A DNA stretch of 64,000 nucleotides from Bacilli bacterium (lineage in GTDB: Bacteria > Bacillota_I > Bacilli_A > RFN20 > CAG-826). Position numbers and translations under genes: made by a program. Location of the stretch: NCBI GenBank assembly GCA_045113315.1, contig JBGUIX010000006.1:168756-232755 (forward strand). The letters run 5' to 3'. This document shows positions 2-59,137 of this stretch, piece by piece (position 1 is the stretch's first letter; each line of letters starts with the position of its first letter). The notes below the pieces were generated by a model that searched no databases, was not told where the DNA came from, and was given only the letters and a program-made list of their open reading frames with translations.

Positions 2-1615
2 AAGCATGAACTTGGTGAAGATGATGGCGGTGCGAATAGCCCAGACACCATTTTGGAAAAATTAGAAAATAATCCATATCCAGAAAACATCAAAGCCAAA
101 GTTAAATCCGAACTAAAGAAATTCGATATGATGCCTCAAGGTTCTTTAGAAGGAGCTTTAATTCAATCTTATTTAGATGTGGTGATGTCTATCCCTTGGT
201 GGCAAAAGACTGAGGATAACGATGATTTAACTAATGTCGAAAAGATATTAGATGAAGATCATTATGGATTAGAAAATCCAAAGAAAAGAATTATTGAATA
301 TTTAGCGGTTAAGAAATTAACTGGTAATTTAAAATCTCCGATTTTATGTTTCTATGGTCCTCCAGGAACTGGTAAAACATCATTAGGCAAAAGTATCGCG
401 AGAGCCTTAGGAAGAAAATTCTTCAAAGCCTCTTTAGGTGGTATTTCTGATGAAGCTGAAATCCGTGGTCATAGACGTACATATGTCGGTTCCTTACCTG
501 GAAGAATTATTCAAGGTATGAGAAAAGCCGGTGTTACTAACCCCGTCTTCCTTTTGGATGAAGTTGATAAATTAGCATCATCTTATAAAGGCGATCCAGC
601 GAGTGCCTTATTAGAAGTTCTCGATCCAGAACAAAATTATTCATTTAATGATAATTATGTGGAAGAACCATATGATTTAAGCGATGTCTTATTTATTTGT
701 ACAGCGAACTATTTAGAAAATATTCCTGGACCATTAAGAGATAGACTAGAATTAATTCAACTTTCTTCCTATACTGAACTTGAAAAAGTTCAAATCGCTA
801 AAGGACATCTCGTAAAAAAGCAGATGGAACTTAACGGTTTAGAAAAGAAACAAGCTAGTTTCACTGAAGGTGCGATTAAATTTATTATTCGTTCCTACAC
901 AAGAGAATCTGGTGTTCGTGACTTAGAAAGAAAGATTGCTTCTTGCTTAAGAAAAGTGGCGGTGGCGATTGTTAAAGACCCATCCATTAAAACGATCAAG
1001 ATTGATGAAGCTAAAGTTAGAGAATATTTAGGTGTCCCAATCTTTGAAGATAGTAAGAAAGAAGTGAAACCTCAAATTGGTGTTGTCACCGGTTTAGCTT
1101 ATACCGAATTCGGTGGTGATATCTTACCAATTGAAGTAAATTACTTCAAAGGTAAAGGTTCTTTAGTCTTAACTGGTCATTTAGGCGATGTCATGAAAGA
1201 AAGCTGTGCAATCGCTTTAGACTATGTGAAGAGTAACGCTGAAAAATTTAATATTGATCCCGCTATATTTGCGGATAATGATATCCACATTCACGTTCCA
1301 GAAGGAGCGGTTCCAAAAGATGGACCAAGCGCTGGTGTAGCTATTACAACTGCGATTGTTTCTTGTCTATCTAAAACGCCAGTTAATCCTGATGTGGCGA
1401 TGACAGGTGAAGTGACCTTAAGAGGTAATGCTTTACCAATCGGTGGATTAAGAGAAAAATCTTTAGCCGCTTTAAGAAGTGGTATTAAGACCATCATCGT
1501 TCCAAAGGACAATAAGAAGGATGTTGATGAACTTCCAAAGGAAGTTAAAGAGACATTAAAGATTGAATTTATGTCTAGCGCTGACGATGCGATAAAAATT
1601 GCTTTAGTAAAATAA
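2..1615 (+). CDS. lon: ATP-dependent Lon protease, 5'-truncated by the window edge (frame is open from nt 2)
   Basis: AAA+ Walker A GPPGTGKTS, Walker B FLLDEVDK, C-terminal S16 protease domain with DGPSAG and the catalytic Lys region. No stop in frame upstream of the TTG at 53. Confidence 0.85.
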   Translation, partial: KHELGEDDGGANSPDTILEKLENNPYPENIKAKVKSELKKFDMMPQGSLEGALIQSYLDVVMSIPWWQKTEDNDDLTNVEKILDEDHYGLENPKKRIIEYLAVKKLTGNLKSPILCFYGPPGTGKTSLGKSIARALGRKFFKASLGGISDEAEIRGHRRTYVGSLPGRIIQGMRKAGVTNPVFLLDEVDKLASSYKGDPASALLEVLDPEQNYSFNDNYVEEPYDLSDVLFICTANYLENIPGPLRDRLELIQLSSYTELEKVQIAKGHLVKKQMELNGLEKKQASFTEGAIKFIIRSYTRESGVRDLERKIASCLRKVAVAIVKDPSIKTIKIDEAKVREYLGVPIFEDSKKEVKPQIGVVTGLAYTEFGGDILPIEVNYFKGKGSLVLTGHLGDVMKESCAIALDYVKSNAEKFNIDPAIFADNDIHIHVPEGAVPKDGPSAGVAITTAIVSCLSKTPVNPDVAMTGEVTLRGNALPIGGLREKSLAALRSGIKTIIVPKDNKKDVDELPKEVKETLKIEFMSSADDAIKIALVK

Positions 1616-2222: not shown

Positions 2223-2228
2223 ATTTTT

Positions 2229-2424
2229 AGCCGTTGAGGAAGAGGAGTAATTATCTTTCTTAAAATAGAGAGTCGAGGATGGTGGAAGCTCGATATAAGG
2301 AAATAATGAAGGTCGCTTCGGAGGATAGTTGCCTAGCGAAAATAGGTTAATGAAGTGCGTTAGAAATAACGAATTAAGGTGGTACCGCGCTGATAGCGTC
2401 CTTAAAAATAGGGACGCTTTTATA
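2229..2424 (+). promoter_or_regulatory. T-box riboswitch leader of valS, with a terminator hairpin
   Basis: Canonical T-box sequence AATTAAGGTGGTACCGCG at 2372-2389. Intrinsic terminator AGCGTCC-N9-GGACGCTTTTAT at 2395-2424. Upstream stem-I-like hairpins carry a candidate GUC (Val) specifier in GAAGGUCGC. Confidence 0.75.
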
Positions 2425-2439
2425 TTAGGAGGAAATTAT

Positions 2440-5034
2440 ATGCTTGAAAAAAGATATGATCCGCACAAAGTTGAAGAAGGAAAATACGAGACTTGGAAGT
2501 CTAAAGGATATTTCACCGCTGGTGATAAATCTAAACAAGCTTTCTCGATGGTTATTCCTCCTCCAAATGTGACGGGTAAACTACATATTGGACATACTTG
2601 TCAAACCACAATCCAAGATATCGTAGCTAGATATAAAAAGATGCAAGGATATGACGTTTTGTGGCTCCCAGGTATGGATCACGCTGGTATTGCCACCCAA
2701 GCGAAAGTGATGGAGAAACTCCGTAACAACGGAGTGGATGTCACTAAAATCACTCGTGAAGAATTTCTAAAAGCGGCTTGGGGATGGAAAGATGAATACG
2801 CAAATAACATTCATTCTCAATGGGCCAAGATGGGTTTATCTTTAGATTACACTAGAGAGAGATTTACTCTTGATGATGGACTTAATTATGCCGTTAGAAC
2901 TGTCTTTGTATCTTTATACAATAAAGGATTAATCTATCAAGGTGAAAGAATCATCAACTGGGATCCAGTGCAGATGACCGCGTTAAGCAATATTGAAGTC
3001 ATCCACCAAAATGACCCCGGCCAAATGTTTTATTTTAAATACAATGTGGTGGGTGAAAAAGACTATTTAATCGTCGCCACAACTAGACCAGAAACCATGT
3101 TTGGTGATGTCTGTGTGGTTGTTAACCCCAAAGATAAAAGATATAAAAAATATGTTGGTAAGAAGGTTATAAATCCAGCCAATGGTGAACAAATTCCAGT
3201 TATCGCTGATGAATATGTTGATATCTCCTTTGGAACAGGGGCGATGAAATGTACACCTGCTCATGATCCTAATGACTTTATCATCGGTGAAAAATATCAT
3301 TTTGAAAAACCAATCATCTTTAATAAAGACGCAACGATGAATGATAAGTGCGGTAAATATCAGGGCATGGATCGTTTTGAATGCCGTAAGGTTTTAGTAG
3401 AAAACATTAAAAAAGATGGTAATTTCATCAAAATTGAAAATATCGTTCACCCAGTTGGCCATTCTGAAAGAAGCCATGCGGTTGTTGAACCGATGCTTTC
3501 TAAACAGTGGTTTGTGAAGATGAGACCTTTAGCCGATCAAGCTTTGGCTAATCAAAAAACTAGTGGCAAAGTTGACTTTGTTCCAAGAAGATTTGAAAAG
3601 ACTTTCATCCAATGGATGGAAAATGCGGAAGACTGGTGTATTTCTCGTCAGTTATGGTGGGGACACCGCATTCCTGCTTATTATAATAAGCACACTGGCG
3701 AAGTTGTCGTTAGCATGGATCCACCAAAAGATATGGAAAATTATGAGCAAGAGAGCGATGTTTTAGACACTTGGTTCTCTAGTGCTTTATGGCCATTCTC
3801 TACTTTAGGTTGGCCTAATAAGACTGAAGATTTTGAACGTTATTTCCCAACCGACACAATGGTTACTGCTTACGATATTATCTTCTTCTGGGTCTCTCGT
3901 ATGATTTTCCAATCCTTAGAAATGAATCACGTTAGACCGTTTAAAGAAGTGGTGATTCATGGTTTAGTAAGAGATGAACTCGGTCGTAAGATGTCTAAAT
4001 CATTAGGTAATGGTGTCGATCCAATCGAAGTTATCGATAAATATGGCGCGGACGCTTTAAGATATTTCTTAACCACAAATGCGGCGCCTGGACAAGATAT
4101 GCGTTATATCGAAGAGAAGGTCATTGCCTCTTCTAATTACCTCAATAAAATCTGGAATTCAGCGAGATATGTCCTTTCAGTTTTACCAGAGAAATTTGAA
4201 CCAAAAGAGGTTAATGTTAAAGAATTATCTCCTCTCGATCAATGGATTATTAATCGTTTAGAAAAGACTATTAAAGCTGTGACCTTAAATATGGAAAAAT
4301 ATGACTTTAACGCAGCGAGTAGTCACTTATATAACTTCGTTTATGATGATTTCTGCTCTGAGTATTTAGAGATGAGTAAAGTCTCTTTATCTTCCGATGA
4401 TGAAAAAGTGAAAAATGTTACTTATCAAACATTATTTAAATGTTTAAAAGATATTATCTTACTTATCTATCCATATACTCCATTTATTGGAGAAGAATTA
4501 TATTTGAATTTACCAGTTCATCTAGAATCTATCATGCTTGAATCTTATCCAAAATATGATGCTCATCTCGTACATTCAATAGTTGATAAACAAGTAGAAG
4601 TTTTATTCTCTATTATTAGAGATGTTCGTAATTATAAGATTGAAAACAAATTAGCGCCTAACGCTAGTTTAGATTTATCTCTTAACTTAAGAATTAAGAT
4701 GTTTGACGGTTATCAAATCTATCTAGAAAGATTTACCTTCTCCAAAGTCAAAGAAGTTGATGATTCGATCGTTAACATGCGTGGTGAACTGAAGATTTAT
4801 GATAACGCCGATTTATTAATCGTTAATGAAGCGGGTAAAGAAGATATCTTAAGAAGAATCGATAAAGAGATTAGCGAAGAAGAAAATGAGATTTTAAGAT
4901 GTCAAAAGATGCTTTCTAATCCAAACTTCATCGCTAAAGCTCCAAAAGAAAAAGTGAAACTTGAAGAAGAAAAACTTAAAACTCATCAAGAAAACTTAGC
5001 TATGCTAAAAGAGAAAAAAGAAAAACTTTCTTAA
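2440..5034 (+). CDS. valS: Valyl-tRNA synthetase
   Basis: Class I HIGH (PPPNVTGKLHIGH) and KMSKS (KMSKSLGN) motifs, C-terminal coiled coil. Start ATG at 2440 preceded by GGAGGA. Confidence 0.9.
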   Translation: MLEKRYDPHKVEEGKYETWKSKGYFTAGDKSKQAFSMVIPPPNVTGKLHIGHTCQTTIQDIVARYKKMQGYDVLWLPGMDHAGIATQAKVMEKLRNNGVDVTKITREEFLKAAWGWKDEYANNIHSQWAKMGLSLDYTRERFTLDDGLNYAVRTVFVSLYNKGLIYQGERIINWDPVQMTALSNIEVIHQNDPGQMFYFKYNVVGEKDYLIVATTRPETMFGDVCVVVNPKDKRYKKYVGKKVINPANGEQIPVIADEYVDISFGTGAMKCTPAHDPNDFIIGEKYHFEKPIIFNKDATMNDKCGKYQGMDRFECRKVLVENIKKDGNFIKIENIVHPVGHSERSHAVVEPMLSKQWFVKMRPLADQALANQKTSGKVDFVPRRFEKTFIQWMENAEDWCISRQLWWGHRIPAYYNKHTGEVVVSMDPPKDMENYEQESDVLDTWFSSALWPFSTLGWPNKTEDFERYFPTDTMVTAYDIIFFWVSRMIFQSLEMNHVRPFKEVVIHGLVRDELGRKMSKSLGNGVDPIEVIDKYGADALRYFLTTNAAPGQDMRYIEEKVIASSNYLNKIWNSARYVLSVLPEKFEPKEVNVKELSPLDQWIINRLEKTIKAVTLNMEKYDFNAASSHLYNFVYDDFCSEYLEMSKVSLSSDDEKVKNVTYQTLFKCLKDIILLIYPYTPFIGEELYLNLPVHLESIMLESYPKYDAHLVHSIVDKQVEVLFSIIRDVRNYKIENKLAPNASLDLSLNLRIKMFDGYQIYLERFTFSKVKEVDDSIVNMRGELKIYDNADLLIVNEAGKEDILRRIDKEISEEENEILRCQKMLSNPNFIAKAPKEKVKLEEEKLKTHQENLAMLKEKKEKLS

Positions 5035-5036
5035 TT

Positions 5037-5091
5037 ATTTTTGAACATTTTACCGATTAACCCCCCTATTTGTGATATAGGAGGGTTTTTT
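5037..5091 (+). promoter_or_regulatory. Conserved leader element, copy A (TTTTTGAACATTT...CCCCCCTATTTGTGATATAGGAGG-N7-ATG)
   Basis: Near-identical copies at 34820-34874 (+) and 59048-59103 (-), all at a fixed distance from an ATG. Contains the SD AGGAGG within a hairpin CCCCCCUAU/AUAGGAGGG followed by a U-run. Confidence 0.5.
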
Positions 5092-5277
5092 ATGAGAAAG
5101 ATCATTTTAACTAAAGAAGAATGTGATAACCAAAAGGTGGGAGAAGCGATTTCCCTAACAGCGGTGATGGCTATTGCGGCGATTGCCGTTATGGCGGTAG
5201 TTGTCTATCGTTTATTCATGTCTGGAAAAGGTGGTGCGACTATTCCAGGTGGATTTAAATTCTCATGGGCGGAATAA
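5092..5277 (+). CDS. Hypothetical 61-aa single-pass membrane peptide
   Basis: ATG 7 nt after AGGAGG. MRKIILTKEECDNQKVGEA, then a TM helix ISLTAVMAIAAIAVMAVVVY, then a Gly-rich tail. The TAA stop is 1 nt before the radC TTG start. Confidence 0.4.
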   Translation: MRKIILTKEECDNQKVGEAISLTAVMAIAAIAVMAVVVYRLFMSGKGGATIPGGFKFSWAE

Positions 5278-5278
5278 T

Positions 5279-5959
5279 TTGTCTAAGATTAATCACTTAC
5301 CGTTATTAGATAGACCTAGAGAGAAAGCTTTTCGTTATGGGATTGATAAATTATCAGACCACGAATTATTAGCCTTATTAATTGAAAGTGGGACGAAAGA
5401 AGAATCAGCGGTTGATATCGCTTATCGAATTATTAGTGCTTCTAACGGTTTAGTTTATCTATTTCAAAAGCCATTCTCTGATTTGACATACTTTAAGGGA
5501 GTGGGAAACGCTAAAGCTATTAAAATAGCCGCTTCTTTTGAAATTGCCAAAAGACTGATGATTGCTAGTGAAGAAAAGCCATATGTTTTAAAGGGAGAAG
5601 AAATCGCGGAGAAATATATCAAAATATTAAATGGATTAACTCAAGAAAGTATGTATCTAGTGATATTAGATAAAAAGAAGAAGATAATCCATGAAACTAA
5701 CATGTATCGCGGTAATGAAAGTAGTTTAAATACTTCCTATCGACAAATACTAAAAGAAGTCATCATCCATAACGGTTCTTATTTCTATATAGTTCATAAT
5801 CATCCAAGTGGAGATGCATTACCAAGCGAGGAAGATATCTTTTTTACGTCAGGAATTATTCATGAATCGAAGAAACTAAAACTAAAAATGCTCGATCATT
5901 TCATTATTGGAAAGGGTCAATACTACTCATTTCTACATTCGAAGATGGTCATAATATAA
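5279..5959 (+). CDS. radC: RadC-like JAB/MPN-domain protein (UPF0758)
   Basis: N-terminal (TTG)SKINHLPLLDRPREKAF matches the RadC consensus. HNHPSGDALPSEED is the JAMM motif. TTG start at 5279 preferred over the ATG at 5201, which overlaps the upstream peptide ORF. Confidence 0.75.
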   Translation: MSKINHLPLLDRPREKAFRYGIDKLSDHELLALLIESGTKEESAVDIAYRIISASNGLVYLFQKPFSDLTYFKGVGNAKAIKIAASFEIAKRLMIASEEKPYVLKGEEIAEKYIKILNGLTQESMYLVILDKKKKIIHETNMYRGNESSLNTSYRQILKEVIIHNGSYFYIVHNHPSGDALPSEEDIFFTSGIIHESKKLKLKMLDHFIIGKGQYYSFLHSKMVII

Positions 5960-6039: not shown

Positions 6040-6130
6040 CGCCTCACTAGCTACAACCGCATAGAGAAGGTTTGCAAAACCTATTAAGGTTACCTTAATA
6101 GCGAGTCCTTAGTGAATCTAAAATAAGGAG
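6040..6130 (+). promoter_or_regulatory. Structured 5' leader of rplU (candidate L21 autoregulatory leader)
   Basis: Several nested hairpins (GGTTTGCAAAACC; AAGGTTACCTTAA; TCACTAG..CTTAGTGA) just upstream of the rplU RBS AAGGAGG. Confidence 0.3.
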
Positions 6131-25276: not shown

Positions 25277-25343
25277 TTTATAAACAAAGTTTATAATAAA
25301 AACTGATAAAATACTAAAAAACTACTAATTAAGGAGATTAGAA

Positions 25344-29528: not shown

Positions 29529-29567
29529 TTGAAAATAGTTATTTATTAGTACATTTTTAGTATAGAT

Positions 29568-31418: not shown

Positions 31419-31459
31419 TTTGGTTAACATAATAAATTATTACATTATATAATAATGGT

Positions 31460-34780: not shown

Positions 34781-34800
34781 AATTATTTATATAATAAATA

Positions 34801-34824
34801 AAAGTTGCTTCGGCAACTTTTTTT
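34801..34824 (+). terminator. Rho-independent terminator after deoB
   Basis: AAAGTTGC-TTCG-GCAACTTT + TTTT, running directly into motif copy B. Confidence 0.75.
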
Positions 34825-34874
34825 GAACATTTCGGCTTTTTCACCCCCTATTTGTGATATAGGAGGACTTTTAA
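34820..34874 (+). promoter_or_regulatory. Conserved leader element, copy B
   Basis: TTTTTGAACATTTCGGCTTTTTCACCCCCTATTTGTGATATAGGAGGACTTTTAAATG. Confidence 0.5.
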
Positions 34875-35435
34875 ATGGAAAAGTTTAAAGCAGAAAGAAA
34901 CTATAGCTACGATTATGGCAGTAAAGTAGCAATAAAGCAGTCAGGAATGAGAGAACAATTAGACTGGATAAAAAGGCAATTAGAATACGTTTCTTTTTCA
35001 GAACAGTATTATCTAAGATACGATTTAAAGAAAGGTGAGATTTACGAATTTGATTGGGGGATTAATGTTAACGCTGAATTCTCGAATAGACATTATGGAG
35101 TCGTTTTAGTGGATTCGGATGTCTTTAATCCCTTAGTAACTGTCTGCCCTTTAAAGACGAATCATGGATCATGTAACAAGAAAAGTGATGTAGATCTAGG
35201 AAATGTTGAATGCTTACGAACAAATAAACATACAATAGCAGTCATCAATCAAATAAGAACGATAGACAAGTTAAGGCTATACATGAAACGGGCTATTGGT
35301 TTAGCAGATTCAAACCCAATTTTTGAGAAAACTGAAAGTGAAAAACGAACGATAAATAGGTTAGAAGATGATAAGCTAAATATGATCATTGATGCCTATA
35401 AAGACTACCTTTCTGGAAATTCCGAAAATGGATAA
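34875..35435 (+). CDS. MazF/PemK/EndoA-fold protein with about 50-aa N- and C-terminal extensions; no adjacent antitoxin
   Basis: Core KKGEIYEFDWGINVNAEFSNRHYGVVLVDSD...PLVTVCPLKT...TIAVINQIRTIDKLRL parallels B. subtilis EndoA ([27 protein letters not shown]...ILLEQIRTIDKQRL). Confidence 0.7.
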   Translation: MEKFKAERNYSYDYGSKVAIKQSGMREQLDWIKRQLEYVSFSEQYYLRYDLKKGEIYEFDWGINVNAEFSNRHYGVVLVDSDVFNPLVTVCPLKTNHGSCNKKSDVDLGNVECLRTNKHTIAVINQIRTIDKLRLYMKRAIGLADSNPIFEKTESEKRTINRLEDDKLNMIIDAYKDYLSGNSENG

Positions 35436-35656
35436 GAGCGATGCATTAGTAGCAAATTAGTAGTTATTTTGGTAAATAGCCTATAAAAATTTGTGTGGAA
35501 AAGTACCCAAATTCAATGTGGGAATTTTAAAAACCGCAAGATACAAAATATAGAAAAATACGATATTATCTAATAAAAATATAAATAAGTTAACATAATA
35601 GAAATTATGCGAAGTAGGTATTTTATAGCGTTTTTCCTCTATTATTGTGTGGATAA

Positions 35657-35680
35657 CAAAAAAAGCACCTTTCGATGCTA
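35657..35680 (-). terminator. Rho-independent terminator for the yqe operon (minus strand)
   Basis: A7-AGCACC-TTTC-GATGCT on the plus strand, which is hairpin + U7 on the minus strand, 23 nt after the nadD-yqeK stop. Confidence 0.5.
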
Positions 35681-35702
35681 TTTATGTGATTCTGCTATTT
35701 TA

Positions 35703-38863: not shown

Positions 38864-38929
38864 GTTATTTTACAAAACTAATAATGTACTAATAAACTAC
38901 TAATAATATTTTTAACATACTATGTATGT

Positions 38930-44420: not shown

Positions 44421-44451
44421 TAGTCCAAGATTAGTATTAAATTAGTAAAAT

Positions 44452-53846: not shown

Positions 53847-53888
53847 ATAACAAAGTTATAAAATTACTAAAAAAATACTAATAAAATA

Positions 53889-57844: not shown

Positions 57845-59047
57845 CTATTCATTTTCTTTTTGGCGTCTCATCCTATTACCGAGTTTGACTTTAACTTTGT
57901 TAAATTCATCGATGTCTTCGTTCATGTTCACAATCGCATCCATCGCTTTATATAAACTTAACGAAATACAGGAATAAAAAATGACATAAGGTGTTGATGA
58001 AATACCACATAAATGCATCGTTAGTAAGGCGGTCGCAATAATTAAACCAGCATAGATATAAGCGCTCGCTAAATTCATATAGCTATAATCGTAAGCTAAT
58101 TTGTGTAAATTATGTGCCTCTTCTTTAAAAGAAGATACGTCGCTAACACTATCTAAAGAATTCTCTTTGGCTTCAATTTGTGTTTTCTTGTTCTTTAAGA
58201 ATGGATTAACGACGAATAAATCGAATAGAACCAAAACTAACGGAACAACCACTAGCAAAGCATTTCTTCGATCATTTAATAATATTAAGACCACTAAACT
58301 AATCGAAGTTAAAATCAATAAGACATAATGAAGTGGGCTAGATAATGATAATTTCTTAAATTGTTCAAACCTAAATAGATAATCTTTTAAATGATCATTA
58401 GGCACCAATTCTTCTTTGAAGAAATAATCATCTAGTTTCTTCATCATGTTATAGCTTATCGCCCTTAAGAGTAATTCGAACAAAATCGCCCCTGCTAAGA
58501 ATATGAAAGGAACATAAATCGGTGTGCCGTCTTTCACAAAATAAACCGCTAGTAAAACTAAGCCCACTATTAAGGCTTCCATAAACCCTAATAGGATGCG
58601 ACTGGTTAAAGATAATGGATTAAAACTTTGATATGGACATTTCCTCTCATTATAATCATCGATCATTAGTCCAGTTCCATCCCATATAGAAATAAATTTC
58701 TTTAACGGCATGGATGTCTTTCCTTTACTAGGATCGAGGTAAAAGACGCGATTAAACTTCACTCCTGTCACTAGAACTGCGTGTTTAGCGTCATTTTCAA
58801 GGCTTAAGGAAAGAATTAATGGAAAGGATGTTTCTTTACCTAACTCATCTTTTTCCTCCACTTTAAAGCCTTTTAAACTGAGCCCATATTCATAAGCGAT
58901 TTCTGTTAAGTCGGTAAATGAATATAGACCATGATTTTCGTCCTGCGGTATGAACAAGTAATTCTTATCCTTGTTTAGATTAGCGAGTATCATCTTTAAA
59001 CAAGCAAATCCGCAGTCATCTTTTTGAATCTGTGGGATATAAAACAT
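57845..59047 (-). CDS. Orphan peptidase-C39-domain protein fused to a 5-6-helix membrane domain; no ABC ATPase
   Basis: N-terminal QKDDCGFACLKM (C39 Cys), AKHAVLVTG (His), YLDPSKG (Asp), then hydrophobic helices. No Walker or signature motifs. ATG at 59047 sits 7 nt after AGGAGG of motif copy C; the ORF-track start at 59197 reads through the motif and the dnaJ terminator. Confidence 0.7.
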   Translation of the reverse strand: MFYIPQIQKDDCGFACLKMILANLNKDKNYLFIPQDENHGLYSFTDLTEIAYEYGLSLKGFKVEEKDELGKETSFPLILSLSLENDAKHAVLVTGVKFNRVFYLDPSKGKTSMPLKKFISIWDGTGLMIDDYNERKCPYQSFNPLSLTSRILLGFMEALIVGLVLLAVYFVKDGTPIYVPFIFLAGAILFELLLRAISYNMMKKLDDYFFKEELVPNDHLKDYLFRFEQFKKLSLSSPLHYVLLILTSISLVVLILLNDRRNALLVVVPLVLVLFDLFVVNPFLKNKKTQIEAKENSLDSVSDVSSFKEEAHNLHKLAYDYSYMNLASAYIYAGLIIATALLTMHLCGISSTPYVIFYSCISLSLYKAMDAIVNMNEDIDEFNKVKVKLGNRMRRQKENE

Positions 59048-59103
59048 AAAATCTCCTCCTATATCACAAATAGGTAGGGGAAAAGCCAAAATGTTCAAAA
59101 AAA
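59048..59103 (-). promoter_or_regulatory. Conserved leader element, copy C (minus strand)
   Basis: Reverse complement reads TTTTTGAACATTTTGGCTTTTCCCCTACCTATTTGTGATATAGGAGGAGATTTTATG. Confidence 0.5.
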
Positions 59104-59119: not shown

Positions 59120-59137
59120 GAGACTCATAGGAGTCTC
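59120..59137 (-). terminator. Terminator hairpin at the dnaJ stop (bidirectional)
   Basis: GAGACTC-ATAG-GAGTCTC flanked by A5 and T6; overlaps the dnaJ stop codon. Confidence 0.7.

What the first reader, a model, noticed from the sequence alone, without database searches (positions are those of the whole stretch)
5037..5094. Thrice-repeated conserved leader of about 55 nt marks a small uncharacterised regulon
Three copies align almost base-for-base at a fixed distance from a start codon:
- A (5037-5094, +): TTTTTGAACATTTTACCGATTAACCCCCCTATTTGTGATATAGGAGGGTTTTTTATG.
- B (34820-34877, +): TTTTTGAACATTTCGGCTTTTTCACCCCCTATTTGTGATATAGGAGGACTTTTAAATG.
- C (59103-59045, -): TTTTTGAACATTTTGGCTTTTCCCCTACCTATTTGTGATATAGGAGGAGATTTTATG.

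Invariant blocks are TTTTTGAACATTT and CCCC(C)TA..TTTGTGATATAGGAGG. TTGAAC to TATTTG is exactly 20 nt in all three.

I found no further copy in the window; the only other 10-mer hit, at about 16751, is inside an ABC coding sequence with no downstream block. Copies B and C start inside the U-tract of strong intrinsic terminators, so the element must carry its own promoter. The TTGAAC-to-GATATA spacing of 27 nt does not fit a simple sigmaA -35/-10 pair. TGTGATATAGG could be an extended -10, which would make the mRNAs nearly leaderless.

The downstream half folds as CCCC(C)UAU / AUAGGAGG(G) with loop UUGUGA, burying the SD and followed by U4-6. That is reminiscent of an RNA thermometer or attenuator. 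The three genes served are non-housekeeping inserts: a TM peptide plus radC, a MazF-fold protein, and a C39-membrane protein. The association of radC with a C39 peptidase loosely recalls streptococcal competence regulons; that link is speculative.
Basis: seen in the sequence. Interest (0 to 1): 0.85.

Follow-up and report, generated by a model that had tools for sequence, protein, structure and literature searches.

The report
Repeated leader hairpin hiding ribosome site
A 57-base cassette, most likely a weak promoter followed by a short RNA hairpin that hides the ribosome-binding site, is copied almost letter for letter in front of at least eight unlinked genes of an uncultured rumen bacterium (small toxins, a MazF-like toxin, a peptide-cleaving membrane protease and a peptide-radC operon); it looks like a shared off-switch for a small set of potentially harmful genes.

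Summary
Three copies sit at the stated places with invariant blocks and spacing (0 expected by chance).

The species-representative MAG (Bacilli bacterium RGIG2675) holds eight copies. The five extra ones head type-I-toxin-like units that encode 21-23-aa hydrophobic peptides.

The three window genes are not inserts. They are syntenic core genes in related MAGs. Their leaders there differ in sequence but keep the same build: an A/T-rich promoter-like box, about 12 nt, a C/U-rich anti-SD, a loop, UAGGAGG, then 6-8 nt to AUG.
- SD pairing is predicted in 15 of 16 leaders.
- The outer stem pairs covary.
- A covariance model finds no other copy in 289 kb.

Best reading: an autonomous promoter-plus-leader cassette whose 5'-UTR hairpin occludes the SD, marking a small regulon and kept alike within a genome by concerted evolution.
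- It does not behave as a thermometer: no predicted melting from 25 to 50 C.
- It matches no Rfam family, cin-box, sigma-20 promoter or LexA site.
- The TSS and the regulator are unresolved.
- In a related lineage the cassette precedes dprA, so a competence-like regulon stays possible but unproven.

Verdict: new variant of a known kind, moderate interest.

The parts
5038..5050 (+). Copy A, block 1: TTTTTGAACATTT, the putative promoter element.
   Evidence: Exact match. It starts 3 nt after the valS stop codon (5032-5034). No terminator lies between valS and the cassette.
5059..5087 (+). Copy A hairpin. 5' arm AACCCCCCUAU 5059-5069, loop UUGUGAU 5070-5076, 3' arm AUAGGAGGGUU 5077-5087. The SD GGAGG is at 5080-5084.
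   Evidence: MFE -12.1 kcal/mol, z -2.8. Opening the SD costs 12.5 kcal/mol against 5.7 in shuffles.
5092..5277 (+). 61-aa single-TM peptide gene served by copy A.
   Evidence: ORF. Conserved upstream of radC in L032 and L034. The family has 54 representatives with an invariant C-terminal PGG.
5279..5959 (+). radC. Its TTG start lies 1 nt after the peptide stop, so it is probably translationally coupled.
   Evidence: Pfam RadC 2e-28 and UPF0758_N 7.8e-23. NCBIfam RadC equivalog.
34800..34821 (.). Intrinsic terminator hairpin of the upstream phosphopentomutase gene. Its T-run runs into block 1 of copy B.
   Evidence: 9-bp stem with a UUCG-type loop.
34820..34832 (+). Copy B, block 1.
34844..34866 (+). 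Copy B hairpin: CCCCCUAU / loop UUGUGAU / AUAGGAGG. The SD is at 34862-34866.
   Evidence: P(SD paired) is 0.79.
34875..35435 (+). 186-aa PemK/MazF-fold protein with no adjacent antitoxin gene.
   Evidence: Pfam PemK_toxin 1.7e-07. Syntenic orthologs at 54-70% identity.
59120..59137 (.). Terminator hairpin downstream of dnaJ and upstream of copy C.
59089..59101 (-). Copy C, block 1.
59053..59080 (-). Copy C hairpin: CCCCUACCUAU / UUGUGAU / AUAGGAGGAG. The SD is at 59059-59055.
   Evidence: P(SD paired) is 0.93.
57845..59047 (-). 400-aa membrane protein with an N-terminal C39 (double-glycine) peptidase domain and no ABC ATPase.
   Evidence: Pfam Peptidase_C39 7.5e-19. Q6, C12, H89 and D105 are invariant in 18 homologues. 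Syntenic between dnaJ and ybeY in relatives.

Best explanation
The element is a self-contained expression cassette.

Block 1 (T-run plus TTGAACATTT) is the core of a weak, non-consensus promoter. Transcription most likely starts in the roughly 12-nt variable spacer. The short 5' UTR then folds into a stem-loop in which a C-rich anti-SD (CCCCCUAU) pairs with AUAGGAGG and occludes the ribosome-binding site 7-8 nt before the AUG. The downstream gene is therefore transcribed little and translated poorly unless something opens the stem.

The same cassette heads three conserved chromosomal genes or operons: the TM peptide plus radC, a solitary MazF-fold protein, and a C39 peptidase membrane protein. 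It also heads five type-I-toxin-like mRNAs. There its GGAGG is not used for initiation and the hairpin sits at the 5' end of the transcript. Together these form a small regulon of products that are risky to make.

The near-identity of copies within one genome, set against divergence between genomes, is best explained by concerted evolution: gene conversion or copying among homologous leaders.

Shown: the repeat, its copy number, its specificity, conservation of the anti-SD/SD architecture across genomes, and the gene content.

Inferred: the TSS position, translational repression, co-regulation, and the conversion mechanism.
For: Repeat and copy number:
- 3 exact copies in the window against 0 expected.
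- 7 exact 18-mers in MAG RGIG2675 plus one copy with a variant loop.

Toxin units:
- They encode 21-23-aa hydrophobic/charged peptides, each with its own SD.
- A 15-bp 5'/3' long-range helix is predicted, and the toxin SD pairs with an internal anti-SD.

Orthologous leaders of the MazF-like, C39 and peptide-radC genes in other MAGs:
- The sequences differ but the architecture is kept: CUUCCUA/UAGGAGG, ACCUCC/GGGAGGU, and ACCUCUUUC/GAAGGAGGU with extended stems.

SD occlusion and covariation:
- P(SD paired upstream) is at least 0.79 in 15 of 16 leaders, and 10 of 16 beat composition-preserving shuffles at <=0.05. The median for 30 other window genes is 0.28.
- In the alignment of 15 leaders, 78.5% of cells are paired against 71.8% in shuffles (0/500). 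The covariation score is 0.211 against 0.117 (0/500). The slid controls reach at most 60.7%. The two outer pairs take UA/AU/GU/CG.

Specificity:
- A regex and a covariance model over 289 kb of the window and related loci recover only these leaders and the toxin copies.

Promoter position:
- B, C and the toxin copies abut upstream terminator-like hairpins, so the promoter must lie inside the cassette.
- TTGAAC/TTGAGA starts 18 nt upstream of the helix base. L028 and L029 have TATAAT there and L027 has CATAAT, at 16-18 nt.
- In the L027/L031 genome the shared block begins just after that box.

Concerted evolution:
- Within-genome leader identity is 75-84% in 3 of 5 genomes. Orthologous leaders between genomes are 51-75% identical.
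Against: - No transcript data exist, so the TSS is inferred.
- TTGAxx-N17/18-CCCTAT spacing is constant across lineages with unrelated spacers. That looks like -35/-10 geometry and would put the TSS in the loop.
- Block 1 is a poor sigma-A -10, and the consensus scan finds no sense-strand promoter.
- Hairpin z-scores are modest for B and C (-0.3 and -1.6).
- The core pairs never vary, so covariation rests on two outer pairs and on related sequences.
- One lineage (L033, L049) shares a leader without a C-rich anti-SD.
- In the toxin mRNAs GGAGG has an alternative downstream partner, UAUCUUCC.
- Six lineages keep a central C.A mismatch where U would pair.
Confidence: 0.55

Rival explanations
1. 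The cassette is a pure DNA-level promoter of an alternative sigma factor or an activator-dependent promoter. TTGAAC is the -35 and CCCTAT(TT) the -10. The TSS lies in the 'loop', so the mRNA starts just before GGAGG and no hairpin forms. The arm complementarity is then incidental.
For: - TTGA(A/G)(C/A)-N17-CCCTAT holds in all 8 copies. It also holds in L036, L038 and L046, with N18 in L034/L035, although the spacers are unrelated.
- CCCCCTATTT is the best-conserved piece across lineages.
- The toxin units carry a downstream partner for GGAGG, which would give a neat 5'-terminal hairpin if the C-run were not transcribed.
- The target genes, radC and dprA, are classic members of alternative-sigma competence regulons (PMC6560143, PMC5069739).
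Against: - CCCTAT lacks the A-11 and T-7 that sigma-70-type -10 elements use.
- Relatives replace the C-run by CUUCC or CCUCC, exactly preserving pairing with GGAGG, and they extend the stem beyond the SD (L029, L030, L032).
- The outer pairs covary.
- Relatives have TATAAT where this model puts the -35.
Confidence: 0.2
2. The inverted repeat CCCCCTAT-N7-ATAGGAGGG is a DNA operator for a dimeric repressor, CIRCE/HrcA-like in logic. It lies between promoter and start codon and defines the regulon at the transcriptional level.
For: - A near-perfect 9-bp inverted repeat at a fixed place in 8 units.
- Identity includes the loop, which a plain anti-SD stem does not need.
- A shared leader persists in a lineage without the C-rich arm (L033/L049).
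Against: - The 3' arm is always the SD and the 5' arm always its complement, in every lineage, while arm sequence and loop length (4-10 nt) drift. That pattern is typical of RNA pairing, not of a protein site.
- No regulator gene was found next to any copy.
Confidence: 0.1
3. The hairpin plus U-tract is a transcription terminator or attenuator. It ends read-through from the upstream gene or from its own promoter unless an antiterminator acts.
For: - In A the stem is followed by U6, and valS has no other terminator.
- The A-locus orthologues L032 and L034 also have a stem followed by a U-rich tail.
Against: - The terminator scan does not call it.
- B, C and the toxin copies lack a U-run directly after the stem.
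- L031 and L035 have A-runs there.
- B and C already have strong terminators upstream.
Confidence: 0.07
4. An RNA thermometer.
For: A short SD-occluding hairpin with one internal mismatch.
Against: - Predicted SD pairing is flat from 25 to 50 C: 0.80, 0.80 and 0.92.
- The stem has 4-6 G-C pairs, unlike fourU or ROSE (my own knowledge).
- The organism comes from a thermally constant rumen.
- There is no Rfam match.
Confidence: 0.03
5. A mobile or selfish repeat (MITE- or REP-like) that happens to land upstream of genes.
For: Multi-copy and near-identical. The toxin units are clearly duplicated, with three on one 5.8-kb contig.
Against: - Distance to the start codons is fixed.
- The orthologous genes in other genomes have homologous leaders at the same place.
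- There are no terminal repeats or target duplications.
- There are no hits in viral contigs, phage records or plasmid records.
Confidence: 0.03

Closest known systems
SD-sequestering 5'-UTR hairpins of type I toxin mRNAs (aapA1/IsoA1 of H. pylori, hok/Sok, bsrG/SR4)
   Same: A CU-rich anti-SD upstream of the SD in a local hairpin keeps a toxic product untranslated. The five toxin units also show a 5'/3' long-distance helix and a conserved -10-like box for a 3'-overlapping antisense RNA (PMC5416894, PMC6733600, PMC3834814).
   Different: - The same cassette also serves three conserved protein-coding genes that are not type I toxins.
- In the toxin units the cassette's GGAGG is about 90 nt upstream of the real SD.
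- No Rfam or Pfam family matches.
Regulon promoters of minor sigma factors that control recombination or competence: streptococcal ComX cin-box (TACGAATA) and Mycoplasma genitalium sigma-20 (TTGTCA-N18/19-ATTWAT)
   Same: A two-block motif before a handful of unlinked genes that include DNA-processing genes: radC here, dprA in a relative, and recA/ruvAB in M. genitalium. The C39 domain's best NCBIfam match is a Mycoplasma peptidase-ABC family (PMC4446450).
   Different: - No cin-box in the cassette, and TACGAATA is not enriched.
- ATTTAT/ATTTGT lies 21-22 nt from TTGAxx, not 18-19.
- No sigma gene is identified.
- The TSS these models imply would remove the SD.
CIRCE/HrcA-type inverted repeats
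   Same: A near-identical 9-bp inverted repeat between promoter and start codon in several operons of one genome, also present in the mRNA. This comparison rests on my own knowledge.
   Different: The arms here are the SD and its complement. They change between species, and no cognate repressor is known.
STAB-SD 5' mRNA stabilisers (B. thuringiensis cryIIIA)
   Same: In the five toxin units a perfect GGAGG sits near the 5' end with no start codon after it. This comparison rests on my own knowledge.
   Different: Here that GGAGG is predicted to be base-paired, and in three other copies it is a true SD.
RNA thermometers (fourU, ROSE)
   Same: A short hairpin occluding the SD.
   Different: G-C-rich stem, no predicted melting, no family match.

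Membership tests
Any Rfam family | Match to a covariance model at the gathering score | tested here: not met
   The window at gathering threshold gives only the T-box and L21 leader. E-value scans of copy A and of a toxin unit give only sub-threshold noise; the best is 24.9 bits against a gathering score of 60.
RNA thermometer | SD pairing that melts in the physiological range | tested here: not met
   Predicted P(SD paired) is constant from 25 to 50 C in A, B and C. This is an in silico test only.
SD-sequestering translational leader (generic kind) | An upstream complement pairs with the SD in the transcript, is conserved in homologues, and is specific to these genes | tested here: met
   Whether the 5' arm is transcribed could not be tested.
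SD-sequestering translational leader (generic kind) | Disrupting the stem raises translation | not testable with these tools
   Needs reporter or toeprint assays.
Canonical sigma-A promoter | TTGACA-16..18-TATAAT, at least 9 of 12 | tested here: not met
   No sense-strand site in any of the three copies. Housekeeping promoters in the window are canonical.
ComX/SigX cin-box promoter | TACGAATA at -10 | tested here: not met
   Absent from all copies. The window has 3 hits against 3.18 expected, none near the cassette.
Mycoplasma sigma-20 promoter | TTGTCA-N18/19-ATTWAT with the TSS just downstream | tested here: not met
   The ATTTGT/ATTTAT box lies 21-22 nt from TTGAxx. Consensus from PMC4446450.
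LexA (Cheo box) regulon | GAAC-N4-GTTC palindrome | tested here: not met
   Block 1 has only one half-site. The window has 1 hit against 0.72 expected, and it is elsewhere.
Intrinsic terminator / attenuator | G+C-rich stem directly followed by a U-run | tested here: inconclusive
   Not called by the scan. Copy A has U6 after an imperfect stem; B, C and the toxin copies do not.
Type I toxin-antitoxin (the five extra units) | Small hydrophobic toxin ORF with its own SD, in a structured mRNA | tested here: met
   21-23-aa peptides, with synonymous changes between copies. Predicted folds of -71 to -74 kcal/mol with a 15-bp 5'/3' helix and a sequestered SD.
Type I toxin-antitoxin (the five extra units) | Antisense RNA antitoxin | tested here: inconclusive
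   A -10-like box (TATAAT, TAAAAT, CATATT or TATTAT) lies 4-7 nt from GTAACAATAG on the opposite strand in all five units. There is no transcript evidence.
Mobile element (MITE/REP) | Variable insertion sites, terminal repeats | tested here: not met
   Orthologous positions in other genomes carry homologous leaders. No phage, plasmid or viral hits.

The most novel reading that the evidence does not exclude
The cassette marks a lineage-specific, peptide-signal-driven regulon of a competence-like or stress type in uncultured rumen and gut Bacilli.
- An unknown sequence-specific factor, either a minor sigma or activator on the DNA or an RNA or protein that opens the hairpin, would switch on several things together. 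These are DNA-processing genes (radC; dprA in a relative), growth-arresting toxins (a solitary MazF-fold protein and a family of type I toxins), a defence-candidate gene (RhuM/PDC-S05 in a relative) and a signalling pair.
- The signalling pair would be the C39 double-glycine peptidase membrane protein and the TM peptide. The peptide's invariant C-terminal PGG, followed by a short aromatic tail, could be the protease's substrate.
- On this reading the within-genome identity of the leader reflects co-evolution with that factor rather than mere gene conversion.
Probability: 0.2. Interest if true: 0.8.

Novelty: new variant of a known kind. Interest (0 to 1): 0.5.

Why it matters
If the reading holds, an uncultured, Mollicutes-like branch of Bacilli keeps a handful of dangerous or conditional genes under one copy-pasted promoter-plus-leader module. 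Those genes are membrane toxins, an antitoxin-less MazF-fold protein, a double-glycine peptidase, and radC or dprA.

That gives three things:
- a ready handle (motif plus covariance model) to enumerate the regulon in MAGs that cannot be cultured;
- a previously unmatched family of type-I-toxin-like loci in this clade;
- a clean natural case of concerted evolution of short regulatory leaders across unlinked genes.

It also makes the question 'do these gut Bacilli have a competence-like programme?' testable with metatranscriptomes. If the cassette is only a weak promoter plus a translational brake, it is an ordinary mechanism in an unusual multi-copy form.

Tried and rejected
- One search used a wrong gap length and gave a false zero. 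One search corrected it.
- Rfam at gathering and E-value thresholds found nothing for the cassette or the toxin units.
- Pfam found nothing for the toxin peptides.
- PADLOC found nothing for the four window proteins.
- Thermometer idea rejected: no predicted melting.
- LexA idea rejected: block 1 contains GAACAT, but there is no palindrome and no box upstream of dinB.
- cin-box rejected.
- Sigma-20-type promoter rejected: the spacing is wrong.
- Extended -10 reading TGTGATATAGG rejected. TATAG-like loops are a by-product of the CCUAU/AUAGG stem, and a TSS after them would delete the SD.
- Antisense promoter inside the cassette: only a 9/12 match in copy A. It is weaker in the other copies and is not pursued.
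- Trans-acting RNA complementary to the 5' arm: no partial match elsewhere in the window.
- Mobile, phage or plasmid origin: no hits ([one chance hit, L048], 85, 86, 99, 100).
- Hope that a short contig, L049, was a transcript that would give a TSS: it is a metagenome scaffold.
- Regulator genes next to copies: none in the window or the toxin loci.
- The 12 other genome hits to the 18-mer lack block 1. They are at about the chance expectation for an 18-mer.

Full report
OBSERVATION.
- The two-block pattern TTTGAACATTT-N15-CTATTTGTGATATAGGAGG matches three times with no mismatch, against 0.00 expected. One search returned zero only because I mistyped the gap.
- The 18-mer TATTTGTGATATAGGAGG matches three times against 0.07 expected, even with three mismatches allowed.
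- TTGAAC to TATTTG is 20 nt in each copy. GGAGG lies 7-8 nt before the ATG at 5092, 34875 and 59047 (minus strand).
- B and C follow the terminator hairpins of the upstream genes. A starts 3 nt after the valS stop, with no terminator between.
- The genes served are a 61-aa single-TM peptide followed by radC, a 186-aa PemK/MazF-fold protein, and a 400-aa membrane protein with an N-terminal C39 peptidase domain. Its catalytic Q, C, H and D are invariant in 18 homologues.

MORE COPIES, AND WHAT THEY HEAD. An exact scan of one genome per species found the 18-mer seven times in one MAG, 'Bacilli bacterium RGIG2675' from goat omasum.
- The other 12 hits lack block 1. They are about what chance gives for an 18-mer.
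- Three of the seven are the window's loci. The window is a close strain: copy A's spacer differs by one base.
- Four more, plus an eighth copy with a changed loop (CCCCCTATTTGTATAGTAGGAGG), are not followed by a start codon. They are followed by a conserved unit of about 200 nt.
- That unit has a structured 5' UTR, its own SD, and a 21-23-aa ORF: MEMLIIFITLLLLLVLAIKENR, MRLVIVFMVLLLLLIMTLKKDR, MEIIIVFMTLLLLMLIEVKKDRK, MEIIIVFMTLLLLMLVEVKKNRN or MNLVILFMTLLLLMLIEVKKR.
- A 3' segment, CCTATACGTAACTAT, is complementary to GTAGTTACGTATAGG in the 5' UTR.
- Folding gives -71 to -74 kcal/mol, with that 15-bp long-range helix closing the molecule and the toxin SD paired to an internal anti-SD.
- All five units have a -10-like box on the opposite strand a few bases from GTAACAATAG.
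- This is the anatomy of a type I toxin-antitoxin locus (compare PMC5416894, PMC6733600, PMC3834814). No Rfam or Pfam family matches.
- The units sit between ordinary chromosomal genes.

THE THREE WINDOW GENES ARE CONSERVED, AND SO IS THE ARCHITECTURE OF THEIR LEADERS. Homologues of the MazF-like, C39 and RadC proteins at 45-70% identity occur in many uncultured 'Bacilli' MAGs, at the same syntenic positions.
- The small peptide is kept upstream of radC.
- The upstream regions differ in sequence. Nearly all keep the same order: an A/T-rich box, about 12 nt, a C/U-rich complement of the SD, a loop of 4-10 nt, UAGGAGG, then 6-8 nt and ATG.
- The complement changes in ways that keep pairing. Examples are CUUCCUA (G.U), ACCUCC/GGGAGGU, GCUUCCUA/UAGGAGGC, and a 9+5-bp stem in L032.
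- The SD is predicted to be paired with upstream bases with probability at least 0.79 in 15 of 16 leaders. Ten of 16 beat composition-preserving shuffles at <=0.05. The median for 30 other genes of the window is 0.28.
- An alignment of 15 leaders gives a 9-pair helix. It has 78.5% paired cells against 71.8% in shuffles (0/500), a covariation score of 0.211 against 0.117 (0/500), and lower values for all slid registers. The two outer pairs, which lie outside the SD core, take UA/AU/GU/CG.
- The core pairs never vary and the sequences are related, so I rate this as moderate support, not proof.
- The feature is specific. A regex for anti-SD hairpins, and a covariance model built from the alignment, recover only these leaders and the toxin copies in 289 kb of the window and related loci. 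The only extras are the sequestor of an FMN riboswitch and one palindrome.

WHERE IS THE PROMOTER? This step is inferred.
- B, C and the toxin copies leave no room upstream of block 1, so the promoter is inside the cassette.
- If the stem forms in RNA, the start must lie upstream of the C-run, that is, in the variable spacer.
- Block 1 starts 18 nt before the base of the helix. L028 and L029 have a perfect TATAAT there and L027 has CATAAT, at 16-18 nt. L026 has TGcTACATT, one base longer than the window's TGAACATT.
- In the L027/L031 genome the block shared by two leaders begins just after that box.
- Housekeeping promoters in the window are canonical, and block 1 is a poor -10. No sense-strand sigma-A site is called.
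- I therefore read it as a weak or factor-dependent promoter.

The main counter-observation is the constant spacing TTGA(A/G)(C/A)-N17-CCCTAT.
- It holds in all eight copies and in homologous cassettes from other metagenomes (N18 in L034/L035), despite unrelated spacers.
- That is -35/-10 geometry. It would start transcription in the loop.
- I keep that as the first rival. It would leave the arm covariation, and the CUUCC/CCUCC replacements, unexplained.

IDENTITY WITHIN GENOMES, DIVERGENCE BETWEEN THEM.
- Leaders of different genes in one genome are 75-84% identical over 57 nt in three of five genomes: the window, L027/L031 and L034/L035. Orthologous leaders in different genomes are 51-75% identical.
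- A fourth lineage shares GACTAACGAAGTnTAGTAGGAGG between a C39 gene and a MazF-like gene.
- In the window species the spacers of B, C and the toxin copies are also alike. The copies are therefore related by descent, not by convergence on two boxes.
- I infer concerted evolution. A co-evolving, sequence-specific partner is the alternative and cannot be excluded.

WHAT THE REGULON MAY BE FOR. A degenerate scan of JGI metagenomes recovered homologous cassettes of the form TTTTGAGAAAAAnAT...CCCCCCTATTTAT...TAGGAGG. They precede:
- dprA, lying between rnhB and topA;
- a RhuM-family gene that matches the PADLOC candidate defence system PDC-S05 (2.4e-80);
- a 130-aa protein with no family match.

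radC and dprA are standard members of streptococcal competence regulons (PMC6560143, PMC5069739).

The TM peptide belongs to a family of 54 representatives with an invariant C-terminal P-G-G followed by a short aromatic tail. The same leader serves a catalytically complete double-glycine peptidase.

These are leads, not tests. The cassette has no cin-box, no LexA box, and not the spacing of the M. genitalium sigma-20 promoter. No regulator was found near any copy.

MECHANISM I COMMIT TO: a weak internal promoter plus a 5'-UTR stem that hides the SD. This makes a default-off cassette for products that are risky to make. What opens the stem is unknown.
- It is not temperature in silico: pairing is flat from 25 to 50 C.
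- The conserved C.A mismatch in the middle of the stem is unexplained.
- In the toxin units the cassette supplies the promoter and a 5' stem-loop. Its GGAGG can alternatively pair with a downstream UAUCUUCC.

VERDICT.
- Right: a regulon marker, its own promoter, an SD-burying hairpin.
- Wrong: thermometer, inserts, near-leaderless mRNAs.
- Still speculative: the competence link.

This is a new variant of known kinds (SD-sequestering leader, regulon promoter), found together with an unmatched type-I-toxin-like family. Interest is moderate.

Noticed in passing
L010 3907-3650(-), 1906-1660(-), 615-370(-); L021 2410-2160(-); L023 1394-1650(+): Five paralogous type-I-toxin-like units in the species MAG. 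Each has a 21-23-aa hydrophobic peptide with a charged tail, a 15-bp 5'/3' long-range helix, an internal anti-SD, and a -10-like box for an antisense RNA at the 3' end. L010 also holds a decayed tandem second unit. No Rfam or Pfam match.
   Followed up: partly
window 25312-25329, 29545-29562, 35445-35462, 38887-38904, 44430-44447, 53865-53882 and others; also L026-L031: A separate repeated intergenic motif, ATTAGTAG-N4-TTAGTA (direct repeat about one helical turn apart). It gives 10 matches against 1.05 expected in the window. It sits right after stop codons or just before start sites, in both orientations, and is conserved in relatives. Function unknown.
   Followed up: partly
window 5092-5277: The 61-aa TM peptide upstream of radC belongs to a family of 54 representatives with an invariant C-terminal P-G-G followed by a 4-8-aa aromatic tail (F/W-x-F-x-W). 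It is co-regulated with a C39 double-glycine peptidase, so the two may be a substrate/protease pair.
   Followed up: partly
window 34875-35702: The MazF-fold gene has no adjacent antitoxin gene. It is followed by a 267-nt non-coding stretch before the convergent nadD-like gene. That stretch contains the ATTAGTAG repeat and a TAAGTTAACATAAT box.
   Followed up: no
window 31420-31433; L026 6534 and 10700; L029 4838 and 12124: TTGGTTAACATAAT recurs upstream of the dinB-like (IMS) gene and, in relatives, also downstream of the MazF-like gene. It could be a promoter or an operator.
   Followed up: no
L046 6086-6913; L047 96-1013; L036 10261-9815(-): In JAEEG* metagenome contigs, homologous cassettes precede dprA (between rnhB and topA), a RhuM-family/PADLOC PDC-S05 gene and a 130-aa protein with no family match. 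In L046 the TGA of block 1 is the rnhB stop codon.
   Followed up: partly
window 2225-2406 and 6045-6119: A T-box leader before valS and an L21 leader before rplU, both behind canonical sigma-A promoters.
   Followed up: no
L010 695-857 and 2027-2317; L035 8009-8546: An FMN riboswitch with an SD sequestor before a membrane transporter, a solitary HigA-like HTH ORF between toxin units, and an IS605 OrfB/TnpB fragment near the MazF-like locus of GCA_045114745.1.
   Followed up: no
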